Shown in pieces: positions 12-18,998 of a DNA stretch of 64,000 nt (position 1 is the first letter of the stretch; every line of letters begins with the position of its first letter). The translations under genes and the position numbers were made by a program. The stretch comes from Naegleria gruberi (taxonomy: Eukaryota). Below the pieces are notes generated by a model. That model was not told the DNA's origin. It ran no database searches and saw only the letters and a program-made list of their open reading frames with translations. The stretch lies in the NCBI GenBank assembly GCA_000004985.1, contig GG738854.1. One strand, given 5' to 3'.

Positions 12-1262
12 ATGAAAAATTACTTGACAATACTATTGGTTTTGATTGCAATTATCATGATGGCTAGTCATCCAATGATGATTCATTGTTTATCATCATC
101 ATCGGAATATTCCTCCTTTATGAATTCTGATAATCATGGAGATGTTTCAATGGTAGAACAATCAGCTCAAGGAAATGCTGCCCTTCAATCAGCCCTAGAC
201 GCCTTGAATTACACTTCAACTTTTACTTATTCGGGAAGAATTACAACATTGGACTTGTTGAATGAGGTGATGAAGAATTCATCCCTAGATAGAAATACTG
301 CTTTGGATTATATTAATAGCTATTATGTTTCTATTAGATTGCCTGTTAGATTTCAAAAATTGACCAATTCAAATGATCTTGTGGAGAGAATTGAAGTTCT
401 GGCTGTGAATAGAATTAGGAATTCATTCTACTTGATGGTGAATAGTTACAACGTAGAGTCATATTTTCTGGGAAAGAACACAACTGTTGGAAAGACAGTT
501 CCATTGTTTACCGATTTGACATCACCATATTTCCCAACTGCTTTTGATGGAAAGACTTTTGTAATGGTTTTCAAACCAAATGGTTGGGCAAACATTTTGA
601 AACAAAGTGATAGTAATGCCACCTCGTCGAGAACTATTCTTCACACTCCACAATTGAAAATGTTCAATCCAACCACCAATTCGAGAAATCATTTCAAAAT
701 TGTTAATATTATGGGAAAGAATGCTTCCCAAGTGATTAATGTTGATTCTGGAAAATGTTTAACATTTAATGATTTTGGATATTTTAACAACTTGATTGCC
801 GACTTTCAAGATTGTGATAGTAATAATAGTAATCAATTATATGTTTGGACTGGTACAACTCTGGTTCCACTCTTCTCTAGAAATGGTAATCAATATTATG
901 CCCTTAAGAGAGATTTCACATTTGGAACTTCATTTATGGAATATTCCAATGATTTCAAATATACAACCATTACTTTACAATTGGTTACACCTGCCAATTA
1001 TGATGTTGTGAGATCACAAAATATTTCTCTAACAGATAGCTCTATTGAGCAATTTTATTCCGACTATTCTCTAGTATTGGACGAAAAATTGGATTCCACA
1101 ATCAAGACATTTGTTTCAAGATCAGTACAGGAAAATACTGATGATAATAGATATCTTAAAGTTATTGGAACAAGGTGGTCAATAGCTCCTTCCTCATTCA
1201 GTAGCAGTTTCATTTATTCTCTTGTATTGTGCTGTTTGGTAATTATTATGCATTTTGTGTAA
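12..1262 (+). CDS. Secreted, N-glycosylated protein with a C-terminal hydrophobic (GPI-anchor-like) tail; function unknown
   Basis: ORF 9..1262 starts at GTG; the first ATG is at 12. N-terminal signal peptide MKNYLTILLVLIAIIMMASHP, many NxS/T sequons, C-terminal hydrophobic stretch SLVLCCLVIIMHFV. Confidence 0.5.
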   Translation: MKNYLTILLVLIAIIMMASHPMMIHCLSSSSEYSSFMNSDNHGDVSMVEQSAQGNAALQSALDALNYTSTFTYSGRITTLDLLNEVMKNSSLDRNTALDYINSYYVSIRLPVRFQKLTNSNDLVERIEVLAVNRIRNSFYLMVNSYNVESYFLGKNTTVGKTVPLFTDLTSPYFPTAFDGKTFVMVFKPNGWANILKQSDSNATSSRTILHTPQLKMFNPTTNSRNHFKIVNIMGKNASQVINVDSGKCLTFNDFGYFNNLIADFQDCDSNNSNQLYVWTGTTLVPLFSRNGNQYYALKRDFTFGTSFMEYSNDFKYTTITLQLVTPANYDVVRSQNISLTDSSIEQFYSDYSLVLDEKLDSTIKTFVSRSVQENTDDNRYLKVIGTRWSIAPSSFSSSFIYSLVLCCLVIIMHFV

Positions 1263-1433
1263 ATAAATAATTCATTATCACTCTTTAATCTGGATTTTAA
1301 TTTGGCAGTACTGTGAACAGTTTTATGATGACGTTTCTTGAATTGATGCTTAAACTCAATTTTTCAATTTTTTCAAGTTGACTGGAAAATGACAGATAAT
1401 TGTTGCATATAATGAACTGGAAAGAACTAAAAA

Positions 1434-11578: not shown

Positions 11579-13223
11579 CTAATGTGAAATTACACTAAAT
11601 ACCAAATAAATCAAAGAAATAAATACCAATGAAATGAACGAGAATGAAACAGTGTTTGCTCCAGCACAAATGAATCTATCCAAAGGAAGAACATAGGCAC
11701 TGGTGGAATATTTCAATTCAGATGGTCCATAACCAGTGAATGTCATTTCAATAGTGAATGCAGTATAACCAATCTTTGGATTTTCCACATCAACACTCCA
11801 TGTCAATGAGTCAACCTCAGTCAAAGTCTTGGAATTAAAGATGGATCCAACATGACTGTATCTGAAATCTCTCGAATAAGTATTTGTTCCGTACCATAAC
11901 AATACCTTACTTGGTTTAATTCCATTTGTAACCTTAACCCAAATTCTGAGTCCATTCGAAATAGTTTCATTGTAGAAAGTATATTGTGGAAGAAGTGAAT
12001 TTCTCGTGGTTGCATAGTAATAAGCAAGGACTGATTGGGGAACATCAGATCCAGCTAAAGAGTGTCCAGTATTAGGCACATAACGAATATATTTTGTGGA
12101 CAATCCTGGAATTTGTTGATAACTGAACAAACTCAAATCTGGCCACATAAATTCATCTCCCATGGCATTGATCATATAGGTTGGTATATTTGTATACCTA
12201 TCTCTATAATTGAATGGATCGACAGCTTGTGCCAATAAATCAAATGCAGTAGTATTCAATTGATTTAAAACTCCTAAATTTTTGTAATCTTGCAAAGCTT
12301 CTGGCCAAGCACAAATTGATTTGTTAATATGTAGGAAACATTCTTTCAAATTCATTATTTGAATAACAATTGGAATTAAACTCTTAATTCTAATTAATTG
12401 AAATTATTTCCAACCATTTCGAATATTAGAACTCAACCATTCTAAACTTGTTTAAACTTACCTTGAATCCCTACTAGCTCCAACCAACCAAGTAGCCCAA
12501 CCACGTTTACTCGTTCCAGCAATTGTAAATTTTTCAATAGAAAATCCAATTTGCTTACTCACAAAATCCTGAATCACATCCATCGCTCTAACTGATGTCT
12601 TGGCCATTGCAAAATGAGATAACCACTCATAATCTTCAACATTGTAAACTGTTCTATTCATGGCCATGTTATTATTCATTCGCTCCATAAATTTCATCCA
12701 CGAGAAGGACATGATTTGATCTTCAGATCTACTAGTTTTGGAACTATCTGATGCGAAAACAATTGGCTGATTTGGAACGGATAATAACATGGAAGAAACT
12801 GTTTGCGAATTTGTGGAAATTGCTTGAAGAATTGCATTTCCTGTTGGCATTTCCATTCCAGTTTTTCCTGCTTCGATTAGTAAGAAACCTTCCTTGATGG
12901 ACCGATCTAGAGTTTTAGGAATGGAAATTAGTAGATAGTGTGACCTATTCATGTGTTGGAAAGCTTTCGAATAAATTAACTTACCAAGAAGAGGCTGAGC
13001 CAATTTCTGCATCTGTTAACCAGTTGACACCTCGCATGGTGATTGTGTAGAAAGTGCAATCGGAATAGGTAGTTGTAGCTGAGATGGAATAGGACATGCT
13101 TGGGGAAGGTTGCTTTAGGTACAAATCGAACATTGTGTCTTGAGAAGAAACTTGAAGAAACAAGACACAACCAAGCAAAATAAAAGAAAGTGAACGAATG
13201 GCAAGATGACAGCTCGAAGACAT
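11579..13223 (-). CDS. PhoPQ-activated pathogenicity-related (PqaA-like) secreted serine hydrolase, 3 exons about join(11579..12380,12462..12944,12985..13223)
   Basis: Signal peptide MSSSCHLAIRSLSFILLGCVLFLQVSS at ATG 13223. Nucleophile-elbow motif IAGTSKRGWATWLVGA. C-terminal hydrophobic tail. Introns of about 40 nt (GTAAGT..AATAG) and 81 nt (GTAAGT..TTAAG). The three ORF-track pieces 12981..13280, 12458..13012 and 11579..12355 join in matching phases. Confidence 0.6.
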
Positions 13224-13443: not shown

Positions 13444-14342
13444 ATGAAAATTCAAATACTGAGTGATTTGCATATTGAACATTTTCCTTCCCTCTCTGAT
13501 TTTCAAGCACAATATAAGAATCGGTATGGAAATTATTTATGTGAGACGGTCTATGGAGAGGTTCTGATACTTGCTGGAGATATTGGTGATCCATTTCAAC
13601 AGAGTTATTTCGATTTTATGCAATATTGTTCGGGGAAGTATAAAGCAGTGATGGTTATTGCTGGAAATCACGAATTTTATGGACATGAATATTTTCAAAC
13701 TATTGATCAGATTAGAAATTTGACCAGATCATTTTCAAATGTATATTTTTTGAATAGAGATGTGGTTGAGTTGACCATTGATGGGAGCTCACTTGTGTTT
13801 TTAGGTTGTACTCTTTGGAGTCATGTACCAGATAAAGCGTTAAATGTAGTTCAGAATGTAAGTGAAATAATATCTATTATCAATACTGAATCAATTACTA
13901 GTCAATGAATGATTACAGATGTATTAGTATTAATAATAATGGAACATTACAATTATTGAATGTTTATCATACGAGTCAAATGTTTAAACAAGATTTAAAT
14001 TGGATTCATTCAGAATTGAAAAAGCACAACACTAAGAAAGTTGTAGTTTGCACTCATCATGCCCCTTTTGTTAAAGGAGTAGCATCACCTTATTACGAGA
14101 ATACCACTGACGAGTCAACCCTTTTGAGCAATCATGCTTTTGCTTCTGATCTGAGTAAGATAATTTCCAATCCTCCAATAATACTGTGTGTATTTGGTCA
14201 CACACATTATTCATCAATTCAGGTTGTGAATAATGTTTATTTGGCAAGTAATCAGCTAGGTTATATTGCAAAAAACTTTTCATCTGAGAAGTCTGATAAC
14301 AAATACAGGGAGGATCTTTTCTATGATAGTGTCAATAAATAA
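13444..14342 (+). CDS. Calcineurin-like metallophosphoesterase, 2 exons join(13444..13857,13902..14342)
   Basis: MPP motifs DLHIEH, ILAGDIGDP and IAGNHEF in exon 1; VFGHTHYS in exon 2. A 44-nt intron GTAAGT..ACTAG (phase 0) is needed to keep the domain contiguous. Confidence 0.65.
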
Positions 14343-14344
14343 AT

Positions 14345-15472
14345 CTAGTTGAATGTATTCCACAAATTCATCAAAGTTCTGTCCTTAATAGAATAAGGAA
14401 CATCCAAAATTCCTCTCAAAATCTTGAGCATATCTAACCCCATCGTTAGTCCAAGGAAACCAGCAATTTCACCAAACAAACTTTCAATTGAAGAAGTGAC
14501 AACCTCGGTAATGTAATTCACATTCAATGTAGCGTATGCAACAGATATCACAACCAATGTTTCGTCTGCTCCAATTAGCTCAACATCAGAAGTTACAGGC
14601 TCCCATCTAACATCGACTAATTGTGGATTAATAGGAGTTGTTTTTAATCTTGAAGTGATAATTTTGGTCAACATGAAATAATTGTCTCTTCTTGGAACTG
14701 CAAAGTTTGTTTCTCCAACTAGATCAGGCATTGTTCCATTTGAATGGAATGACACCTGCAGGCCAACTCTCGAGTAGTCGCTTACATCTGATCCTGTTGG
14801 TCTTGGTACTCGAACAAAGAATGACAAACTACCAGTATAACCTGTATAATTTGCAGTCACAACATTAATGGATCGATTGTTGAAAACATAGCACCTAAAC
14901 AATGAATCATCTTGTCGTATTTCCTTATATTCAGCTTGTTGTAGGTATTCAGGAATATCTTTTTGGATATCAGCCCTAAACACTTTCTCCAATCTCAGCC
15001 CACAATAACTACAGTTATTTGTTAGTGCATTCCAATTACAAATTGAAATAGCTGGAAAGGGAAGCGGTACCTCCTCAACATATGACAAAGAGGTGGTTGG
15101 ATTATTAATCGCATCCACAAAGTTCACAATTGAATTAATCGAATACCATAACGAAACACCAATCATTACAATCCAACCAATAGCTGTTAATATCTGATAC
15201 CATCTCAGAGGTATCTGCCATCCACAAATAGTTCTCTTTCTTTTGTGCTTTTCAGATTCTGCAGGCTCATTATTTCCAAATTGATTATTCGTATTATTCT
15301 TAGATTTGTTTCCTCCAATAATTACATCAAATAAGGATAAATTCTTTGAGGATTTTCTTTTCGATAATTTCTTTCCAATTGTTGGAATTTCCACTTCATG
15401 AGGTGAATCCAATCGGGTAGTATTTTGTTGAGCAACTTGTTGAGGGTTATTTGAAGAATTATTCTTCATCAT
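14345..15472 (-). CDS. ENaC/degenerin (amiloride-sensitive Na+ channel superfamily)-like small channel subunit
   Basis: TM1 ILTAIGWIVMIGVSLWY followed by PFPAISICNWN (hallmark FPAVTIC-like post-TM1 motif). A Cys-containing extracellular region of about 200 aa. TM2 with G-x-S-like filter LFGEIAGFLGLTMGLDML. Paralog of 16011..17177. Confidence 0.6.
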   Translation of the reverse strand: MMKNNSSNNPQQVAQQNTTRLDSPHEVEIPTIGKKLSKRKSSKNLSLFDVIIGGNKSKNNTNNQFGNNEPAESEKHKRKRTICGWQIPLRWYQILTAIGWIVMIGVSLWYSINSIVNFVDAINNPTTSLSYVEEVPLPFPAISICNWNALTNNCSYCGLRLEKVFRADIQKDIPEYLQQAEYKEIRQDDSLFRCYVFNNRSINVVTANYTGYTGSLSFFVRVPRPTGSDVSDYSRVGLQVSFHSNGTMPDLVGETNFAVPRRDNYFMLTKIITSRLKTTPINPQLVDVRWEPVTSDVELIGADETLVVISVAYATLNVNYITEVVTSSIESLFGEIAGFLGLTMGLDMLKILRGILDVPYSIKDRTLMNLWNTFN

Positions 15473-15908
15473 CAGTGATAAGATAAGGATTCGAGGTGTT
15501 ATTTCCTACTCCAAATACAACTTGTGGTGTTGGTGTCATTACGAAATTTTGTACATCCTGTGATATAGGTTGGCTAAAGCTCTCCACGGTTACTGTTTTA
15601 TGATTCCTCATTGCTTCATTCTCTATCACTTGAAGAATAATATCTTGTGCCCTAGTTTGTCTATCCTCAATTTCCTCTATTTTTGGAGTCAAGACTACTT
15701 CATCATCCCGATAAATATTTGAATTATTTGAAATTTGATATTCTTTAACTGGAGAAGATATAGATTCTTGTTCGGAATGATCTTGTTGATTTAGTTGTTG
15801 ATGATTTGTAGGCGACGATGGTCTATACAAATCTCTCACCACTGAAGAACTAACCTTCTGAAAGAATGGATCGTCTTCAACGGGCATAATCTCTGGTGCA
15901 CTTTTCAT
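15459..15908 (-). CDS. ORF immediately upstream of and overlapping (out of frame) the ENaC-like gene start; possible N-terminal extension via frameshift or unrecognised splice, or an independent small ORF
   Basis: ORF 15459..16037 is open. An internal ATG at 15908 has AAAAAAAAGATG context (MKSAPEIMPVEDDPFF..). It overlaps 15459..15472 of the downstream ORF. Confidence 0.25.
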   Translation of the reverse strand: MKSAPEIMPVEDDPFFQKVSSSVVRDLYRPSSPTNHQQLNQQDHSEQESISSPVKEYQISNNSNIYRDDEVVLTPKIEEIEDRQTRAQDIILQVIENEAMRNHKTVTVESFSQPISQDVQNFVMTPTPQVVFGVGNNTSNPYLITDDEE

Positions 15909-16010
15909 CTTTTTTTTAAGGTTGAATTTGTTTGGCTGAACATATAAATTTACTGTATTTGAAAGTGGCGGGAAGAATGGTTGTAGAATTTGTAAGGAAC
16001 TTGAAAAAAA

Positions 16011-17177
16011 ATGCTGAACAAGAAAAAGACGGTTCAATTCTCTGATATTTTAAAAGAGGAGGTGGAGAATGATGTTTATTCAGTACAAAAAACAACTTCA
16101 ACCAAGGCCAATAATACTGCTACTACTATTTCTCCAGAGGATATCAAGTCGATCAAGGAAAAGTTGGAAAAACCAATTTCTAGAGAAGTTGCTATGGAAA
16201 TTAAAAAGAAGGCGATATTAACTTCGGATAGTGATGCTGTGCAAGATTATTTATTTGAGGAAGATGGTGGACAGGAAGGCGAGGAGGAAGAGGATCCGAG
16301 TGATTGTTTGGAAAGAAGAATAGGAGTTAAAGTTAAGGATGTGATTTTGATTTATGCATGGTTGATATTGGGAGCATTATTGATTTATTATGTTTATTCA
16401 TCAGTTAATACCTATGTTGTGGACAGAAACAAGCCAGCGACCAATGTTGCATACACAGCTCAATCAAAACTCTCATTTCCTGCTGTCACAATATGCAATT
16501 GGAATACTGGAGATGATCCTGTGAATGATATTGCCTTGGATTATTGTTTTCATGCAACGTCAAATGATTCAACTCACGAAGAATGCAAATTTCCAATTAC
16601 AAAGAAGAAAATTGTTAGTGGAGATCAGATTTTCTCCTGCCTAGTTCTGAATAATGACACCAGAACTCCTCTCCAAGCCACAAAAACAGGTTATTTGGGC
16701 ACCATCTCTGTAATTGTGACCATCAAAAATGTTACATTATCCTCTGGAGAGATTAGATCCTCTGGAGTCCAAGTTACCTTCCACAATATTGGAGAAACAG
16801 CACAAGATTTGCTTCTCAATGAAACAAAGTGTGCAACTCCAAACTTTGATAATAATTTCTCAATTTCTAAAGTTGTGAGCCACACCATTAGACCAACACC
16901 ATTTACCAAAACTTTTTGGGAATCCTCTTATTCAGCAGTAGAATTGGTAAAACAGAGGAATAACAAGATTATGGTTTCATTTGCTTACAACACGCTGAAC
17001 ATACAACAGGTAACAGAATATGAAGCAAGTAACTGGCTACAATTATTAGGAGAAATTTCAGGCATGGCCAGCACACTTTATGGATTTGGATTTGTTATGT
17101 TTTGGAGAACATGTTTGTGGTTACCAATAGCAATCAAGAAAAAGTCTGTAAAGGTAGTTTGGGAGGAGCTGAACTGA
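16011..17177 (+). CDS. ENaC/degenerin-like small channel subunit (paralog, divergently oriented to 14345..15472)
   Basis: ATG at 16011 (AAAAAAAATG). TM1 VILIYAWLILGALLIYYVY. LSFPAVTICNWN motif. Extracellular Cys-containing domain. TM2 SNWLQLLGEISGMASTLYGFGFVMFW. Confidence 0.65.
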   Translation: MLNKKKTVQFSDILKEEVENDVYSVQKTTSTKANNTATTISPEDIKSIKEKLEKPISREVAMEIKKKAILTSDSDAVQDYLFEEDGGQEGEEEEDPSDCLERRIGVKVKDVILIYAWLILGALLIYYVYSSVNTYVVDRNKPATNVAYTAQSKLSFPAVTICNWNTGDDPVNDIALDYCFHATSNDSTHEECKFPITKKKIVSGDQIFSCLVLNNDTRTPLQATKTGYLGTISVIVTIKNVTLSSGEIRSSGVQVTFHNIGETAQDLLLNETKCATPNFDNNFSISKVVSHTIRPTPFTKTFWESSYSAVELVKQRNNKIMVSFAYNTLNIQQVTEYEASNWLQLLGEISGMASTLYGFGFVMFWRTCLWLPIAIKKKSVKVVWEELN

Positions 17178-17233: not shown

Positions 17234-18010
17234 TTATTTATTTGGGAAGGCCAAAGTGTAGAATTCCTTCCAATTCATTGTCTTTCCATCTTTCCAATTT
17301 GCATTAATATATTGAGCCATGTGTGGGAAGGCAGTAATTACCATTTGTCTAAAATCCAAAGCAATAGCAGAATCAGATTGCTCTCTTGGTCCATCTCCAA
17401 AGATTCTTCTTATGACATTGAAAATTCTTACTGCTGCACTGGAGCCAATTTGACCAACAACATACCAAAAGTAATCCCACAATGTTACTAATTGATCAGA
17501 CATTTCATCATAATCTCCTTGTGTTCTGTACTTATGGCTTGCTCCTGGTGGAGGTGGAGTTGGATCAACAAATCTATCAATGAGAGAAAAGACAGTTCTA
17601 AAAGCTTTTTCACCAAGAATACTCAATACTTGGAAGAAATATCCAGCAAGGCTTTCGTCTGATAATTGCATGTTAGCAGCAAGATCAGCACTTTCAATAT
17701 ACTTAATCTTGCTCTTGTCTATTACTTGCAATGCTTTTATAATCAATTGTTTTGTTTGTTGTAAACCAAACTTATTGACAATTCTCAAAAAGTGGGCCAT
17801 CAAACTCTCCTCGACAACATCAGCTTCTTCTTGATAGGTACTTCTTCTTTCAATCTTTTTAATGAGTTTATCAACACGCTTGTCAATAATCTTGTTAAAC
17901 AAACGTTTTACTTGAGTTCTTTCCTCTCTAGTCAATTGAGAGCCTGTAATACCAACAGCCAGCAAACAAACCAAAAGGAATGTAGCAATTACAAAGGTTG
18001 ATCTTTGCAT
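17234..18010 (-). CDS. Secreted hypothetical protein (258 aa) with N-terminal signal peptide
   Basis: ATG at 18010. MQRSTFVIATFLLVCLLAVGITGS signal peptide. No recognisable domain. Confidence 0.5.
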   Translation of the reverse strand: MQRSTFVIATFLLVCLLAVGITGSQLTREERTQVKRLFNKIIDKRVDKLIKKIERRSTYQEEADVVEESLMAHFLRIVNKFGLQQTKQLIIKALQVIDKSKIKYIESADLAANMQLSDESLAGYFFQVLSILGEKAFRTVFSLIDRFVDPTPPPPGASHKYRTQGDYDEMSDQLVTLWDYFWYVVGQIGSSAAVRIFNVIRRIFGDGPREQSDSAIALDFRQMVITAFPHMAQYINANWKDGKTMNWKEFYTLAFPNK

Positions 18011-18335: not shown

Positions 18336-18998
18336 ATGTTGCAACAAGAAAATGTCAACATGTTGGAGAATAACAATATTTGGCTCATTGATGGCTTGGT
18401 CTCGGAGGAGGAATGCCAGGAAATTATAACAAATGAATGTGAAAAGAAGGAATTTGAGAGTGGAACTTATAATAATGCACAAGACCGTTCCATCAGAAAT
18501 AATTCTCGGCTCATCATGGATAATCAAAATTATTCTAATTGGTTATGGACACGAGTTAAAGATTATATTCCAAAATTGGCATCCGAGCTCAGCAATAAGT
18601 GTGTGAGAAGAGCTACAACTATTGGTTATGAATTATGTGAATTGAGCGATAAGATTAGATTTTACAGATATTACAAGGGTGAATTTTTTGCTCCTCATTC
18701 AGATGGTGGAATTGTATTGGAAAGTGTGGAAACTATTGATGGAGAGGAATATTATGTGACCAAAAAGAGTTTTCTCACTTTATTGTTGTATCTGAATGAA
18801 ATTCCAAATGGAGGGGGTGAAACTGAATTTCTCAACAAGAATACTAAACAAGTGGAGTGGTCTGTAGAGCCAAAACCTGGAAGGATTTTACTGTTCGTTC
18901 ATGAAAATTATCATCAAGCCAAAACTGTGAATCAGGATGGAGATGTAAAGTTTGTGATGAGAACTGATGTGCTTTATAGACATCTAACCAAAAAATAA
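18336..18998 (+). CDS. 2OG-Fe(II) oxygenase (prolyl 4-hydroxylase-like, P4Hc)
   Basis: HxD..H iron-binding triad: FAPHSDGG and RILLFVHENYHQAKTV. ATG at 18336 in A-rich context. Confidence 0.65.
   Translation: MLQQENVNMLENNNIWLIDGLVSEEECQEIITNECEKKEFESGTYNNAQDRSIRNNSRLIMDNQNYSNWLWTRVKDYIPKLASELSNKCVRRATTIGYELCELSDKIRFYRYYKGEFFAPHSDGGIVLESVETIDGEEYYVTKKSFLTLLLYLNEIPNGGGETEFLNKNTKQVEWSVEPKPGRILLFVHENYHQAKTVNQDGDVKFVMRTDVLYRHLTKK

What the first reader, a model, noticed from the sequence alone, without database searches (positions are those of the whole stretch)
14345..17177. Divergent pair of miniature ENaC/degenerin-like channel genes sharing a roughly 100-bp bidirectional promoter
Two paralogous genes, 375 and 388 aa, sit head to head. 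Each has a cytoplasmic N-terminus, a first TM helix, the post-TM1 ENaC hallmark (LSFPAVTICNWN in one, PFPAISICNWN in the other), a short Cys-containing extracellular domain and a second TM helix with a G-x-S-like filter (LLGEISGMAS / LFGEIAGFLG). The extracellular domain is about 200 aa, against more than 350 aa in classical ENaC/ASIC channels. The ENaC/DEG superfamily is essentially metazoan, whereas the ubiquitin sequence here is non-animal. A lineage-specific expansion of truncated ENaC-like channels outside animals would be notable. The two start codons are only about 100-540 bp apart, depending on which start the minus gene uses.
Basis: partly seen in the sequence, partly recalled or inferred. 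Interest (0 to 1): 0.75.

Follow-up and report, generated by a model that had tools for sequence, protein, structure and literature searches.

The report
Miniature ENaC-like channel gene pair, Naegleria
Two head-to-head genes of the amoeba Naegleria gruberi encode stripped-down relatives of animal sodium channels (ENaC/ASIC); the genes are already in public databases, but their widespread protist family turns out to link two channel families (ENaC/ASIC and the acid-activated chloride channel PAC) that the papers I could read describe as unrelated in sequence.

Summary

The minus gene has a 5' exon (15522..15908) and a 58-nt intron, so the two ATGs lie 102 bp apart.

The extracellular domain is about 200 aa: palm and beta-ball only. 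Finger, thumb, knuckle and the HG motif are missing. The true filter position reads G-L-D (minus) and G-F-G (plus).

This is not a Naegleria-specific truncation. N. gruberi has at least 9 such units, and the mini form also occurs in Amoebozoa, a malawimonad, an apusomonad, a stramenopile and Ancoracysta.

ENaC-like genes in Naegleria were, to my recollection, reported in 2011 (paper not held here), so the headline claim is not new.

What seems new: a profile of the mini family significantly detects both ASIC/ENaC (E 1e-20) and PAC/TMEM206 (E 4e-14). Classical ASC profiles do not detect PAC.

Function is untested. The most likely reading is trimeric cation channels.

The parts
14345..15463 (-). 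Minus gene, exon 2 (includes the stop codon). It encodes most of the cytoplasmic N-terminus, TM1, the extracellular domain, TM2 and the short C-terminus.
   Evidence: ORF. tblastn of public model P0001. Spliced translation equals P0001. Pfam ASC 54.4 bits.
15464..15521 (-). Intron of the minus gene: 58 nt, GT..AG, not a multiple of 3.
   Evidence: Sequence read. Removing it reproduces the 501-aa public protein exactly.
15522..15908 (-). Minus gene, exon 1: 129 codons starting at ATG 15908. Low-complexity cytoplasmic N-terminal extension.
   Evidence: Codon-usage log-likelihood +0.21 bits per codon in frame, against -0.76 and -0.43 in the other frames and -0.09 upstream of the ATG. It is part of P0001.
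15909..16010 (.). 102-bp divergent intergenic spacer between the two start codons (29% G+C). It must hold both 5' UTRs and any promoter elements.
   Evidence: Promoter function was not tested.
16011..17177 (+). Plus gene: single-exon CDS of 388 aa, identical to the public protein P0004.
15104..15202 (-). Minus gene TM1 helix (residues 91-123 of the 375-aa ORF).
   Evidence: AF2 helix H91-123, pLDDT about 80-86. Hydropathy peak 1.89.
15029..15058 (-). Minus gene post-TM1 motif FPAISICNWN (beta1). Its Cys is invariant in the family.
   Evidence: Aligns with FPAVTLCNLN of ASIC1/2.
14489..15103 (-). Minus gene extracellular domain, 205 aa: palm plus beta-ball only. Contains CYVFNN (14876..14893) and GLQVSFH (14744..14764).
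14381..14488 (-). Minus gene TM2 helix. Holds GEIAG (14459..14473; equivalent of GDIGG, the degenerin-site Gly plus an acidic residue). Holds G-L-D (first three codons of 14429..14440) at the position of the ASIC GAS selectivity filter.
16332..16430 (+). Plus gene TM1 helix (residues 108-140).
   Evidence: AF2 helix H108-140. Hydropathy peak 2.24.
16476..16505 (+). Plus gene post-TM1 motif FPAVTICNWN.
16431..17033 (+). Plus gene extracellular domain, 201 aa. Contains CLVLNN (16638..16655) and GVQVTFH (16764..16784).
17034..17141 (+). Plus gene TM2 helix. Holds GEISG (17049..17063) and G-F-G (within 17082..17093) at the filter position. It lacks the family's conserved Asp and Lys.

Best explanation
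The locus holds two anciently diverged paralogous genes of Naegleria gruberi. Each encodes a subunit of a minimal member of the DEG/ENaC (Pfam ASC) channel superfamily.

Each subunit has a cytoplasmic low-complexity N-terminus, TM1, an extracellular domain of about 200 aa, a pore-lining TM2 and a short C-terminus. The extracellular domain consists only of the conserved 12-strand palm plus beta-ball core. It keeps the Cys pair that I recall forming a beta1-to-beta-ball disulfide in ASIC1.

By analogy with every solved relative (ASIC, ENaC, FaNaC, PAC), three subunits should assemble round a central pore (inferred, not shown).

The pore is predicted to conduct cations. TM2 keeps the degenerin-site Gly followed by Glu. 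In the minus gene and in most of the family there is an Asp where ASIC has the Ser of the G-A-S filter. That Asp lies within 0-2 residues of the Lys that makes PAC anion-selective; the PAC mutation K319E makes it cation-selective (PMC7904269).

The gating stimulus is unknown. The acidic pocket and thumb used by ASIC and the protease-sensitive finger used by ENaC are absent. Gating therefore has to act through the palm/beta-ball core, for example by protons, osmotic or mechanical load, or a small ligand (inference).

The plus-strand paralogue has a divergent TM2 (G-F-G, no Asp or Lys). It may be a modulatory or heteromeric partner. The 102-bp head-to-head spacing would allow co-regulation, but nothing here shows it.

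The genes are not truncated animal channels. They belong to a pan-protist mini-ASC family that is intermediate in sequence between classical DEG/ENaC and PAC/TMEM206.
For: Identity and gene models:
- N. gruberi proteins at 100% identity; splice model.

Family membership:
- Pfam ASC 54.4 and 35.2 bits against the 23.6 threshold. All 50 mini-family members tested hit ASC at E <= 1 (best E 3e-22) and only scattered single-member hits to other families.
- Heterolobosean profile against PDB: ASIC2 E 4.5e-9, with alignments of TM1/beta1 and beta12/TM2.
- 50-sequence profile against PDB: ASIC5 E 6.5e-20, ENaC gamma 1e-15.

Fold:
- AF2 cores at pLDDT about 75-86 (minus) and about 60-80 (plus).
- Foldseek: ASIC E 1e-13; PAC E 3e-11 with TM-score 0.62 normalised on PAC.

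Domain map:
- hhalign to the ASIC-like P0144: probability 96%, collinear from TM1 to TM2, with large gaps that I assign to finger, Cys-rich thumb and knuckle.

Pore motifs:
- Family consensus GD[FIL][AS]GM.G.L.G[LI]D against metazoan GD[IL]GG..GL..G[AILV]S.

Breadth:
- 573 / 121 / 62 cluster representatives at E <= 1e-3 / 1e-10 / 1e-30. The best-scoring full-length representatives are mostly about 280-400 aa and match end to end in one stretch.
- Named members in Naegleria (at least 9 units), Willaertia, Planoprotostelium, Ceratiomyxa, Gefionella, Platysulcus, Ancoracysta and Thecamonas.

PAC link.
Against: - No functional, expression or localisation data exist here.
- Trimer formation, ion selectivity and gating are inferred from homologues.
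- Three textbook DEG/ENaC features are absent: the HG motif, the G/S-x-S filter, and the thumb with its Cys-rich disulfide set. Channel properties may therefore differ strongly from ASIC/ENaC.
- A conserved Lys sits three residues after the filter-position Asp (G-L-D-M-L-K). It could neutralise the Asp, leaving selectivity open.
- AF2 models rest on shallow alignments (8-9 sequences) and have only moderate confidence (mean pLDDT 64.5 and 58.8).
- The alignment of TM2 to PAC is weak (11 bits for that stretch), and the two methods place the Lys 0-2 residues from the Asp.
Confidence: 0.8

Rival explanations
1. They are protist counterparts of the proton-activated chloride channel (PAC/TMEM206): small trimeric two-TM anion channels opened by acid, rather than cation channels of the ENaC type.
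For: - Same size and architecture as PAC: an extracellular domain of about 200-240 aa with no thumb.
- The family profile hits PAC at E 4e-14 to 1e-6. hhalign probability 91%.
- A conserved Lys lies one turn below the filter position in most of the family.
Against: - Neither window protein hits Pfam TMEM206 at E <= 10, whereas both pass ASC. TMEM206 is absent from the 25 families listed for the 50 family members.
- The profile scores ASIC (70-74 bits) above PAC (39-55 bits).
- ASC hallmarks are present (FPAVTICN, CYxFN, G-D/E at the degenerin site). PAC has APGIALYP in place of the first and has no counterpart of the last.
- The residue at or next to the PAC Lys319 position is Asp or Gly, and K319E makes PAC cation-selective (PMC7904269).
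Confidence: 0.1
2. One reading: a Naegleria lineage-specific expansion of secondarily truncated ENaC channels, possibly acquired from animals by lateral transfer and then shortened.
For: - N. gruberi does have many copies (at least 9 units), several in adjacent pairs: this pair, the tandem fused in P0002, and NAEGRDRAFT_64710/64711.
- Lateral transfer between Naegleria and animal ancestors was one of two options offered by Studer et al. 2011 (from memory; paper not held).
Against: - The same miniature architecture occurs in Amoebozoa, a malawimonad, an apusomonad, a stramenopile and Ancoracysta, and in dozens of environmental clusters.
- In the ranked profile search, proteins longer than 450 aa that match only around TM1 and TM2 become common only below about E 1e-10, and the five long sequences I used as outgroup sit apart from the minis in the rough tree.
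- The plus and minus genes fall in different subclades, each with non-Naegleria relatives.
- PAC, the next relative, is also miniature. A small extracellular domain is therefore the more parsimonious ancestral state.
Confidence: 0.08
3. The two genes are an obligate co-expressed pair. One 102-bp bidirectional promoter drives both, and the products co-assemble into a heterotrimer, as the ENaC subunits do. The plus gene (G-F-G pore) would be the non-canonical subunit.
For: - Head-to-head ATGs 102 bp apart.
- Strongly different TM2 sequences in otherwise collinear paralogues.
- Heteromeric assembly is common in DEG/ENaC (established knowledge).
Against: - The N. gruberi window is uniformly compact, so short spacers are unremarkable: 2 bp and 56 bp separate these genes from their other neighbours.
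- The Willaertia homologue of the minus gene has no paired ASC neighbour.
- A related contig has a tandem pair, not a divergent one.
- There are no expression data.
Confidence: 0.25
4. They are decaying or non-functional gene relics with no channel activity.
For: They lack the HG motif, the GxS filter and the thumb. The plus gene also lacks the family's own conserved TM2 Asp and Lys.
Against: - Both reading frames are intact with coding-type codon usage throughout.
- Family-wide invariant or near-invariant residues are retained in both. In P0001 numbering: C271, C320 and N324 are invariant; P251, P266, G337, L442 and G471 are nearly so.
- The family is conserved across eukaryotic supergroups.
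Confidence: 0.03

Closest known systems
Acid-sensing ion channels / ENaC / degenerins / FaNaC (DEG/ENaC superfamily, Pfam ASC PF00858)
   Same: - Passes the curated family HMM.
- Two TM helices around an extracellular domain.
- beta1 motif FPAVTICN.
- beta-ball motif CYxFN, including the Cys pair that I recall forming a disulfide in ASIC1.
- beta7-like GLQVxFH.
- beta12 TLN.
- TM2 start LLG(D/E)I.G with the degenerin-site glycine.
   Different: - The extracellular domain is about 200 aa instead of about 350-500 aa.
- The finger helices, the Cys-rich thumb and the knuckle are missing.
- There is no HG motif before TM1.
- The G/S-x-S selectivity filter is G-L-D (minus gene and family consensus) or G-F-G (plus gene).
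- The host is a heterolobosean amoeboflagellate, not an animal.
Proton-activated chloride channel PAC / ASOR (TMEM206, Pfam PF15122)
   Same: - Same overall size (about 300-350 aa core).
- Same minimal two-TM plus 12-strand beta-domain architecture without a thumb.
- Foldseek E 3e-11, TM-score 0.62 on PAC.
- The mini-family profile detects PAC by sequence (E 4e-14 to 3e-9). The match has a convincing beta1 segment (nPstSVSYeE..d...P against HPVMSVSYKEVDRYDAP) and a collinear second stretch through TM2.
   Different: - Does not hit the TMEM206 Pfam model.
- Carries the ASC signature motifs.
- Has Asp or Gly where PAC has the anion-selecting Lys319.
- PAC is reported from vertebrates plus a hemichordate and as a single-copy gene (PMC6663466). 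This family is multi-copy and occurs in protists.
Published non-metazoan DEG/ENaC homologues (Cafeteria roenbergensis, Tunicaraptor unikontum; PMC10507113)
   Same: DEG/ENaC-family proteins outside animals, with patchy distribution among unicellular eukaryotes.
   Different: - Those sequences were reported to cluster with the animal ASIC and ENaC sub-clusters (PMC10507113). The Naegleria-type proteins form their own miniature group.
- Neither that paper nor PMC9822975 mentions Naegleria (one search lists neither).
Small arthropod DEG/ENaC channels with solved structures (centipede BRTNaC1, 431 aa; PDPNaC1, 421 aa)
   Different: Their solved chains are still longer (362 and 344 residues modelled, against a core of about 285 here). 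They are animal proteins. I did not examine their domain content or pore motifs.

Membership tests
DEG/ENaC (Pfam ASC, PF00858) | Score above the curated Pfam gathering threshold (23.6 bits). | tested here: met
   Minus 54.4 bits (E 1.4e-14) and plus 35.2 bits (E 9.6e-9), three stretches each. The full 501-aa model scores 45.6 bits.
DEG/ENaC (Pfam ASC, PF00858) | Two transmembrane helices flanking one large extracellular domain, with N- and C-termini inside. | tested here: met
   AF2 helices 91-123 and 329-364 (minus), 108-140 and 342-377 (plus). Hydropathy. All 4-5 mid-protein N-glycosylation sequons lie in the loop, and basic clusters lie just before TM1 and after TM2. Orientation is inferred, not measured.
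DEG/ENaC (Pfam ASC, PF00858) | Post-TM1 beta1 motif FPAVTxCN. | tested here: met
   FPAISICN and FPAVTICN. Aligned to FPAVTLCN of ASIC1/2. Conserved across the family.
DEG/ENaC (Pfam ASC, PF00858) | Palm plus beta-ball fold as in solved ASIC/ENaC structures. | tested here: met
DEG/ENaC (Pfam ASC, PF00858) | Conserved Cys pair linking beta1 to the beta-ball (Cys of FPAVTxC and Cys of CYxFN). That they form a disulfide in ASIC1 is from memory. | tested here: met
   Both Cys are invariant in 50 family members (C271 and C320 of P0001). Actual disulfide formation cannot be tested here.
DEG/ENaC (Pfam ASC, PF00858) | Cys-rich thumb domain, finger helices and knuckle. | tested here: not met
   The collinear hhalign to the ASIC-like P0144 shows three large gaps, which I assign to these domains. 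The extracellular domain is 205 / 201 aa with 4 / 5 Cys in total.
DEG/ENaC (Pfam ASC, PF00858) | His-Gly (HG) motif in the cytoplasmic segment before TM1. | tested here: not met
   No HG dipeptide anywhere in either protein. The ASIC-like comparator P0144 has TFHG.
DEG/ENaC (Pfam ASC, PF00858) | G/S-x-S selectivity filter in mid-TM2. | tested here: not met
   The GAS of ASIC aligns with G-L-D (minus) and G-F-G (plus). The family consensus is G-[LI]-D.
DEG/ENaC (Pfam ASC, PF00858) | Degenerin-site small residue followed by an acidic residue at the outer end of TM2 (LLGD of ASIC). | tested here: met
   LFGE (minus) and LLGE (plus). The Gly is invariant in the first six-sequence alignment.
DEG/ENaC (Pfam ASC, PF00858) | Trimeric, amiloride-sensitive, Na+-preferring conductance. 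| not testable with these tools
   Needs electrophysiology.
PAC / TMEM206 (PF15122) | Match to the TMEM206 Pfam model. | tested here: not met
   No TMEM206 hit at E <= 10 for either window protein, and none among the 25 listed families for 50 relatives. Human PAC itself scores 564 bits.
PAC / TMEM206 (PF15122) | Minimal two-TM plus beta-domain fold without a thumb. | tested here: met
PAC / TMEM206 (PF15122) | Pore-lining Lys (human K319) forming the anion filter. | tested here: not met
   In the HMMER alignment K319 pairs with the family's Asp. In an ungapped extension of the hhalign alignment it pairs with the Gly two residues earlier. The alignment in this stretch is weak.

The most novel reading that the evidence does not exclude
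The Naegleria-type mini-ASC proteins, including both genes of this window, belong to an ancient pan-eukaryotic family that is the missing sequence link between DEG/ENaC cation channels and the PAC/TMEM206 chloride channel. If so, the resemblance of PAC to ASIC/ENaC is divergence from a common minimal palm-plus-beta-ball ancestor, not convergence. The finger, thumb and knuckle of animal channels would be later insertions. The selectivity-filter position (GAS, G-x-D, Lys319) would be a conserved site at which charge was swapped.
Probability: 0.55. Interest if true: 0.75.

Novelty: new variant of a known kind. Interest (0 to 1): 0.5.

Why it matters
The headline claim, ENaC-like genes outside animals, is not new. 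Both proteins are in public databases with the ASC domain, and I recall that Naegleria was reported to have the family in 2011.

What the locus gives is a clean, intron-poor example of a minimal form of the superfamily: two helices plus the bare beta core. That form is widespread in protists and has not been characterised in any paper I could find. It matters in three ways.

1. It offers the smallest natural scaffold on which to ask what the DEG/ENaC core can do without its accessory domains.
2. Its pore carries an Asp ring where animal channels have the Na+-selecting Ser and where PAC has the Cl- selecting Lys. Selectivity rules can therefore be tested by simple swaps.
3. The family profile connects ASIC/ENaC and PAC by sequence. 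[quoted passage not shown] This turns the origin of both families into a question that can be tested.

Tried and rejected
- **Word-indexed homologue searches** found only 3-6 relatives each. The exhaustive representative search was needed to see the family.
- **Exact-protein contig look-ups** failed for the N. gruberi proteins P0002 and P0004. I could not measure the distance between this pair and the tandem pair on the same 665-kb scaffold.
- **Synteny.** The Willaertia homologue has no ASC neighbour. A related Logan/ENA contig has a tandem pair, not a divergent one. The divergent arrangement is therefore not conserved where I could look.
- **Scans of other collections** found no relative: GTDB prokaryote genomes, IMG/VR viral contigs and JGI metagenome contigs. 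These scans depend on a few exact peptide patterns, so they are weak negatives.
- **The afdb50 fold library** was not available.
- **Literature.** No held paper discusses Naegleria DEG/ENaC. Studer et al. 2011 and the Hanukoglu 2016 review are not held, so my statement about prior reports in Naegleria rests on memory. No held paper reports ASC-PAC sequence homology or protist mini-ENaCs.
- **Rejected: the PAC hit as a transmembrane-composition artefact.** 500 window-shuffled PAC sequences score at most 5.2 bits against 39-42 bits for real PAC. Two non-overlapping subsets of the family each detect PAC, while a classical ASC profile does not.
- **Rejected: neighbouring genes as functional partners.** The neighbours are a metallophosphoesterase, a PhoPQ-related protein, a 2OG-Fe(II) oxygenase and a protein with no family match. 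They are unrelated in kind.


Full report
**1. What is in the sequence**

The window is AT-rich (32-39% G+C). The two ORFs are exactly as described: 14345..15472 on the minus strand (375 aa) and 16011..17177 on the plus strand (388 aa). They are paralogues, with 30% identity over 293 residues and E = 1e-39.

Database look-ups identify the organism as Naegleria gruberi. The plus ORF is identical to a 388-aa "predicted protein" (P0004). The minus ORF is the 3' part of a 501-aa "predicted protein" (P0001). Both sit on a 665-kb scaffold and both already carry a precomputed PF00858 assignment.

The 501-aa model is reproduced exactly by joining 15522..15908 to 14345..15463, removing a 58-nt GT..AG intron. 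Exon 1 has the codon usage of real genes of this window in that frame only (+0.21 bits per codon). The sequence just upstream of ATG 15908 does not (-0.09).

The two start codons are therefore 102 bp apart (15909..16010).

**2. Family membership**

Both proteins pass the curated Pfam ASC threshold: 54.4 and 35.2 bits against 23.6. A profile of the two genes and their closest relatives finds ASIC2, ASIC1 and ASIC5 in the PDB at E 4.5e-9 to 3e-8. The alignments cover TM1 plus beta1 (FPAVTLCN) and beta12 plus TM2.

AlphaFold2 models were built on shallow alignments of 8-9 sequences. They are moderately confident in the core (blocks of pLDDT 75-86 for the minus protein, about 60-80 for the plus protein) and disordered in the N-termini.

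- Foldseek agrees: ASIC E 1e-13, PAC E 3e-11.

**3. Anatomy**

| Feature | Minus protein (375-aa ORF numbering) | Plus protein |
|---|---|---|
| TM1 | 91-123 | 108-140 |
| Extracellular domain | 124-328 (205 aa) | 141-341 (201 aa) |
| TM2 | 329-364 | 342-377 |

A profile alignment to a typical ASIC-like protein (P0144, 513 aa) is collinear from TM1 to TM2 (probability 96%). It shows three large gaps in the Naegleria proteins. By comparison with the ASIC1 domain layout as I remember it, I assign them to:

- the finger helices, between beta2 and the beta-ball;
- the Cys-rich thumb;
- the knuckle.

What remains is the palm plus beta-ball core. It keeps FPAVTICN, CYxFN, GLQVxFH and TLN. The two Cys of the first two motifs are invariant in 50 family members. 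From memory, these form the beta1-to-beta-ball disulfide in ASIC1.

There is no HG dipeptide before TM1.

That is the degenerin-site glycine and the following acidic residue. The real G-A-S belt aligns about 11 residues later with G-L-D in the minus gene and G-F-G in the plus gene. Across the family the consensus is GD[FIL][AS]GM.G.L.G[LI]D, against GD[IL]GG..GL..G[AILV]S in long animal-type sequences.

**4. Not a Naegleria oddity**

An exhaustive profile search of 1.84 billion cluster representatives gives 573 hits at E <= 1e-3, 121 at <= 1e-10 and 62 at <= 1e-30. The best-scoring full-length representatives are mostly about 280-400 aa and match end to end in one stretch. Proteins longer than 450 aa that match only around TM1 and TM2 (two or three stretches) become common only below about E 1e-10.

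Cluster look-ups name further N. gruberi paralogues:

- XP_002678414 and XP_002682191;
- XP_002672040, a fused model of 1563 aa;
- XP_002680073 and XP_002680074, which are adjacent locus tags;
- P0002, which is a fused tandem pair.

Relatives also occur in N. fowleri and Willaertia magna. Outside Heterolobosea, named members come from:

- Planoprotostelium fungivorum and Ceratiomyxa fruticulosa (Amoebozoa);
- Gefionella okellyi (malawimonad);
- Thecamonas trahens (apusomonad);
- Platysulcus tardus (stramenopile);
- Ancoracysta twista;
- TARA ocean samples.

A rough neighbour-joining tree puts the two window genes in different subclades. The minus gene sits with other heterolobosean proteins. 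The plus gene sits with environmental sequences (no support values were computed).

The pair is therefore an old duplication or a chance adjacency, not a recent local duplicate. "Lineage-specific truncation" is the wrong description. No relatives were found in prokaryote or viral collections, but those scans are insensitive.

**5. An unexpected link to PAC**

With 50 mini-family sequences (A4), the profile hits ASIC/ENaC/FaNaC in the PDB at E 6.5e-20 to 1e-15. It also hits the proton-activated chloride channel PAC/TMEM206:

| PAC chain | E-value |
|---|---|
| Xenopus 8h8d | 4e-14 (55 bits) |
| bovine | 6e-10 |
| human 7jna | 3e-9 |
| 7ji3 | 1e-6 |

I verified a human PAC sequence against the PDB at 100% identity. 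I then ran four checks.

- **Shuffle control.** 500 shuffles of human PAC that preserve local composition score at most 5.2 bits against the profile. Real PAC scores 39-42 bits.
- **Collinearity.** The match has two collinear stretches. One is TM1 plus beta1, where "knPstsvsyeeedplefPaV" pairs with "KHPVMSVSYKEVDRYDAPGI". The other runs from beta9 through TM2.
- **Independent subsets.** Two non-overlapping subsets of the family each detect PAC (31 and 28 bits). The six named heterolobosean-type sequences give 15 bits. A profile of 23 long sequences (450 aa or more) taken from the lower-scoring hits gives 2.8 bits, which is noise.
- **Other methods.** The Pfam ASC model does not hit PAC. hhalign of A4 against a single PAC sequence gives probability 91%, E 1e-6, over 231 collinear columns.

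The held literature says the opposite. TMEM206 and ASIC/ENaC are called "unrelated in amino acid sequence", under the heading "structural convergence" (PMC7904269). [quoted passage not shown] A review states there is "no homology" among PAC and the other trimeric channels (PMC10378246).

I found no paper reporting this bridge. The library is incomplete, however, and I could not run the reciprocal search.

**6. Mechanism**

What is shown: the fold, the topology, the motifs and the family.

What is inferred:

- Three subunits form one central pore, as in every solved relative.
- The pore is lined by TM2.
- The minus-type subunit is predicted to be cation-selective. It keeps the acidic residue after the degenerin-site Gly. 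It also has Asp at the ASIC filter position, which falls 0-2 residues from PAC Lys319 in the two alignments. K319E makes PAC cation-selective (PMC7904269).

A conserved Lys three residues below the Asp is a caveat.

The gating stimulus cannot be deduced, because the ASIC acidic pocket and thumb and the ENaC finger are absent.

The plus-gene TM2 (GFGFVMFWRTCLW) lacks both the Asp and the Lys. That suggests a different conductance or an accessory heteromeric role.

The 102-bp divergent spacer permits co-regulation. Spacers here are short everywhere, though (2 bp and 56 bp to the outer neighbours). The arrangement is not conserved in Willaertia. The neighbouring genes are functionally unrelated.

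**7. Novelty and verdict**

That Naegleria has ENaC/degenerin-like genes is, to my knowledge, already published (Studer et al. 2011; not held here, so unverified). It is also implicit in public annotation. Non-metazoan DEG/ENaC from a stramenopile and a filasterean relative are published too (PMC10507113), although that paper does not mention Naegleria.

I could not find descriptions of three things:

- the minimal architecture as a pan-protist family;
- the G-x-D pore motif;
- the sequence bridge to PAC.

I rate the object a new variant of a known kind, with moderate interest (0.5). The interest would be higher if the PAC link holds up under reciprocal searches and experiment.

Noticed in passing
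Family level (alignment A4, which includes window 14345..15908 minus and 16011..17177 plus): The profile of 50 mini-ASC proteins detects the proton-activated chloride channel PAC/TMEM206 in the PDB at E 4e-14 to 1e-6, in two collinear stretches. Shuffled PAC controls score at most 5.2 bits. Classical ASC profiles and the Pfam ASC model do not detect PAC. The papers I could read describe the two families as unrelated in sequence.
   Followed up: partly
Related proteins P0017 and P0177 (NAEGRDRAFT_64710/64711), P0002, and locus L002 8001..9910: ASC-like genes tend to lie in adjacent pairs elsewhere too. There are two consecutive locus tags on another N. gruberi scaffold. There is a tandem pair fused into one 492-aa model on the same scaffold as this window. 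There is a tandem pair (333 aa plus 226 aa) on a contig assembled from a public sequencing run, of unknown organism.
   Followed up: partly
window 13444..14342 (+): A calcineurin-like metallophosphoesterase is split into two overlapping ORFs (13444..13908 and 13905..14342). Only the first hits Pfam Metallophos. This is probably one gene with a small intron or a frame change. Its stop lies 2 bp from the stop of the minus ENaC-like gene.
   Followed up: no
window 11579..13012 (-): A PhoPQ-activated pathogenicity-related family protein (PF10142, a family named from bacteria) is split across two ORFs (11579..12355 and 12458..13012). The two ORFs match consecutive halves of the Pfam model, which implies an intron of about 100 nt.
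   Followed up: no
window 17234..18010 (-): A 258-aa ORF with a hydrophobic N-terminus that looks like a signal peptide (judged by eye) and no Pfam match lies 56 bp downstream of the plus gene, convergent with it. Function unknown.
   Followed up: no
locus L004 1..1484 (JGI sample 3300030738): A 1484-nt environmental contig carries a complete, intronless 398-aa mini-ASC ORF (166..1362) with UTR-like flanks. It looks like an assembled transcript. If so, family members are expressed in nature. The sample type could not be checked here.
   Followed up: no
window 18336..18998 (+): A 2OG-Fe(II) oxygenase (PF13640) gene lies nearby. It has no evident link to the channel genes.
   Followed up: no
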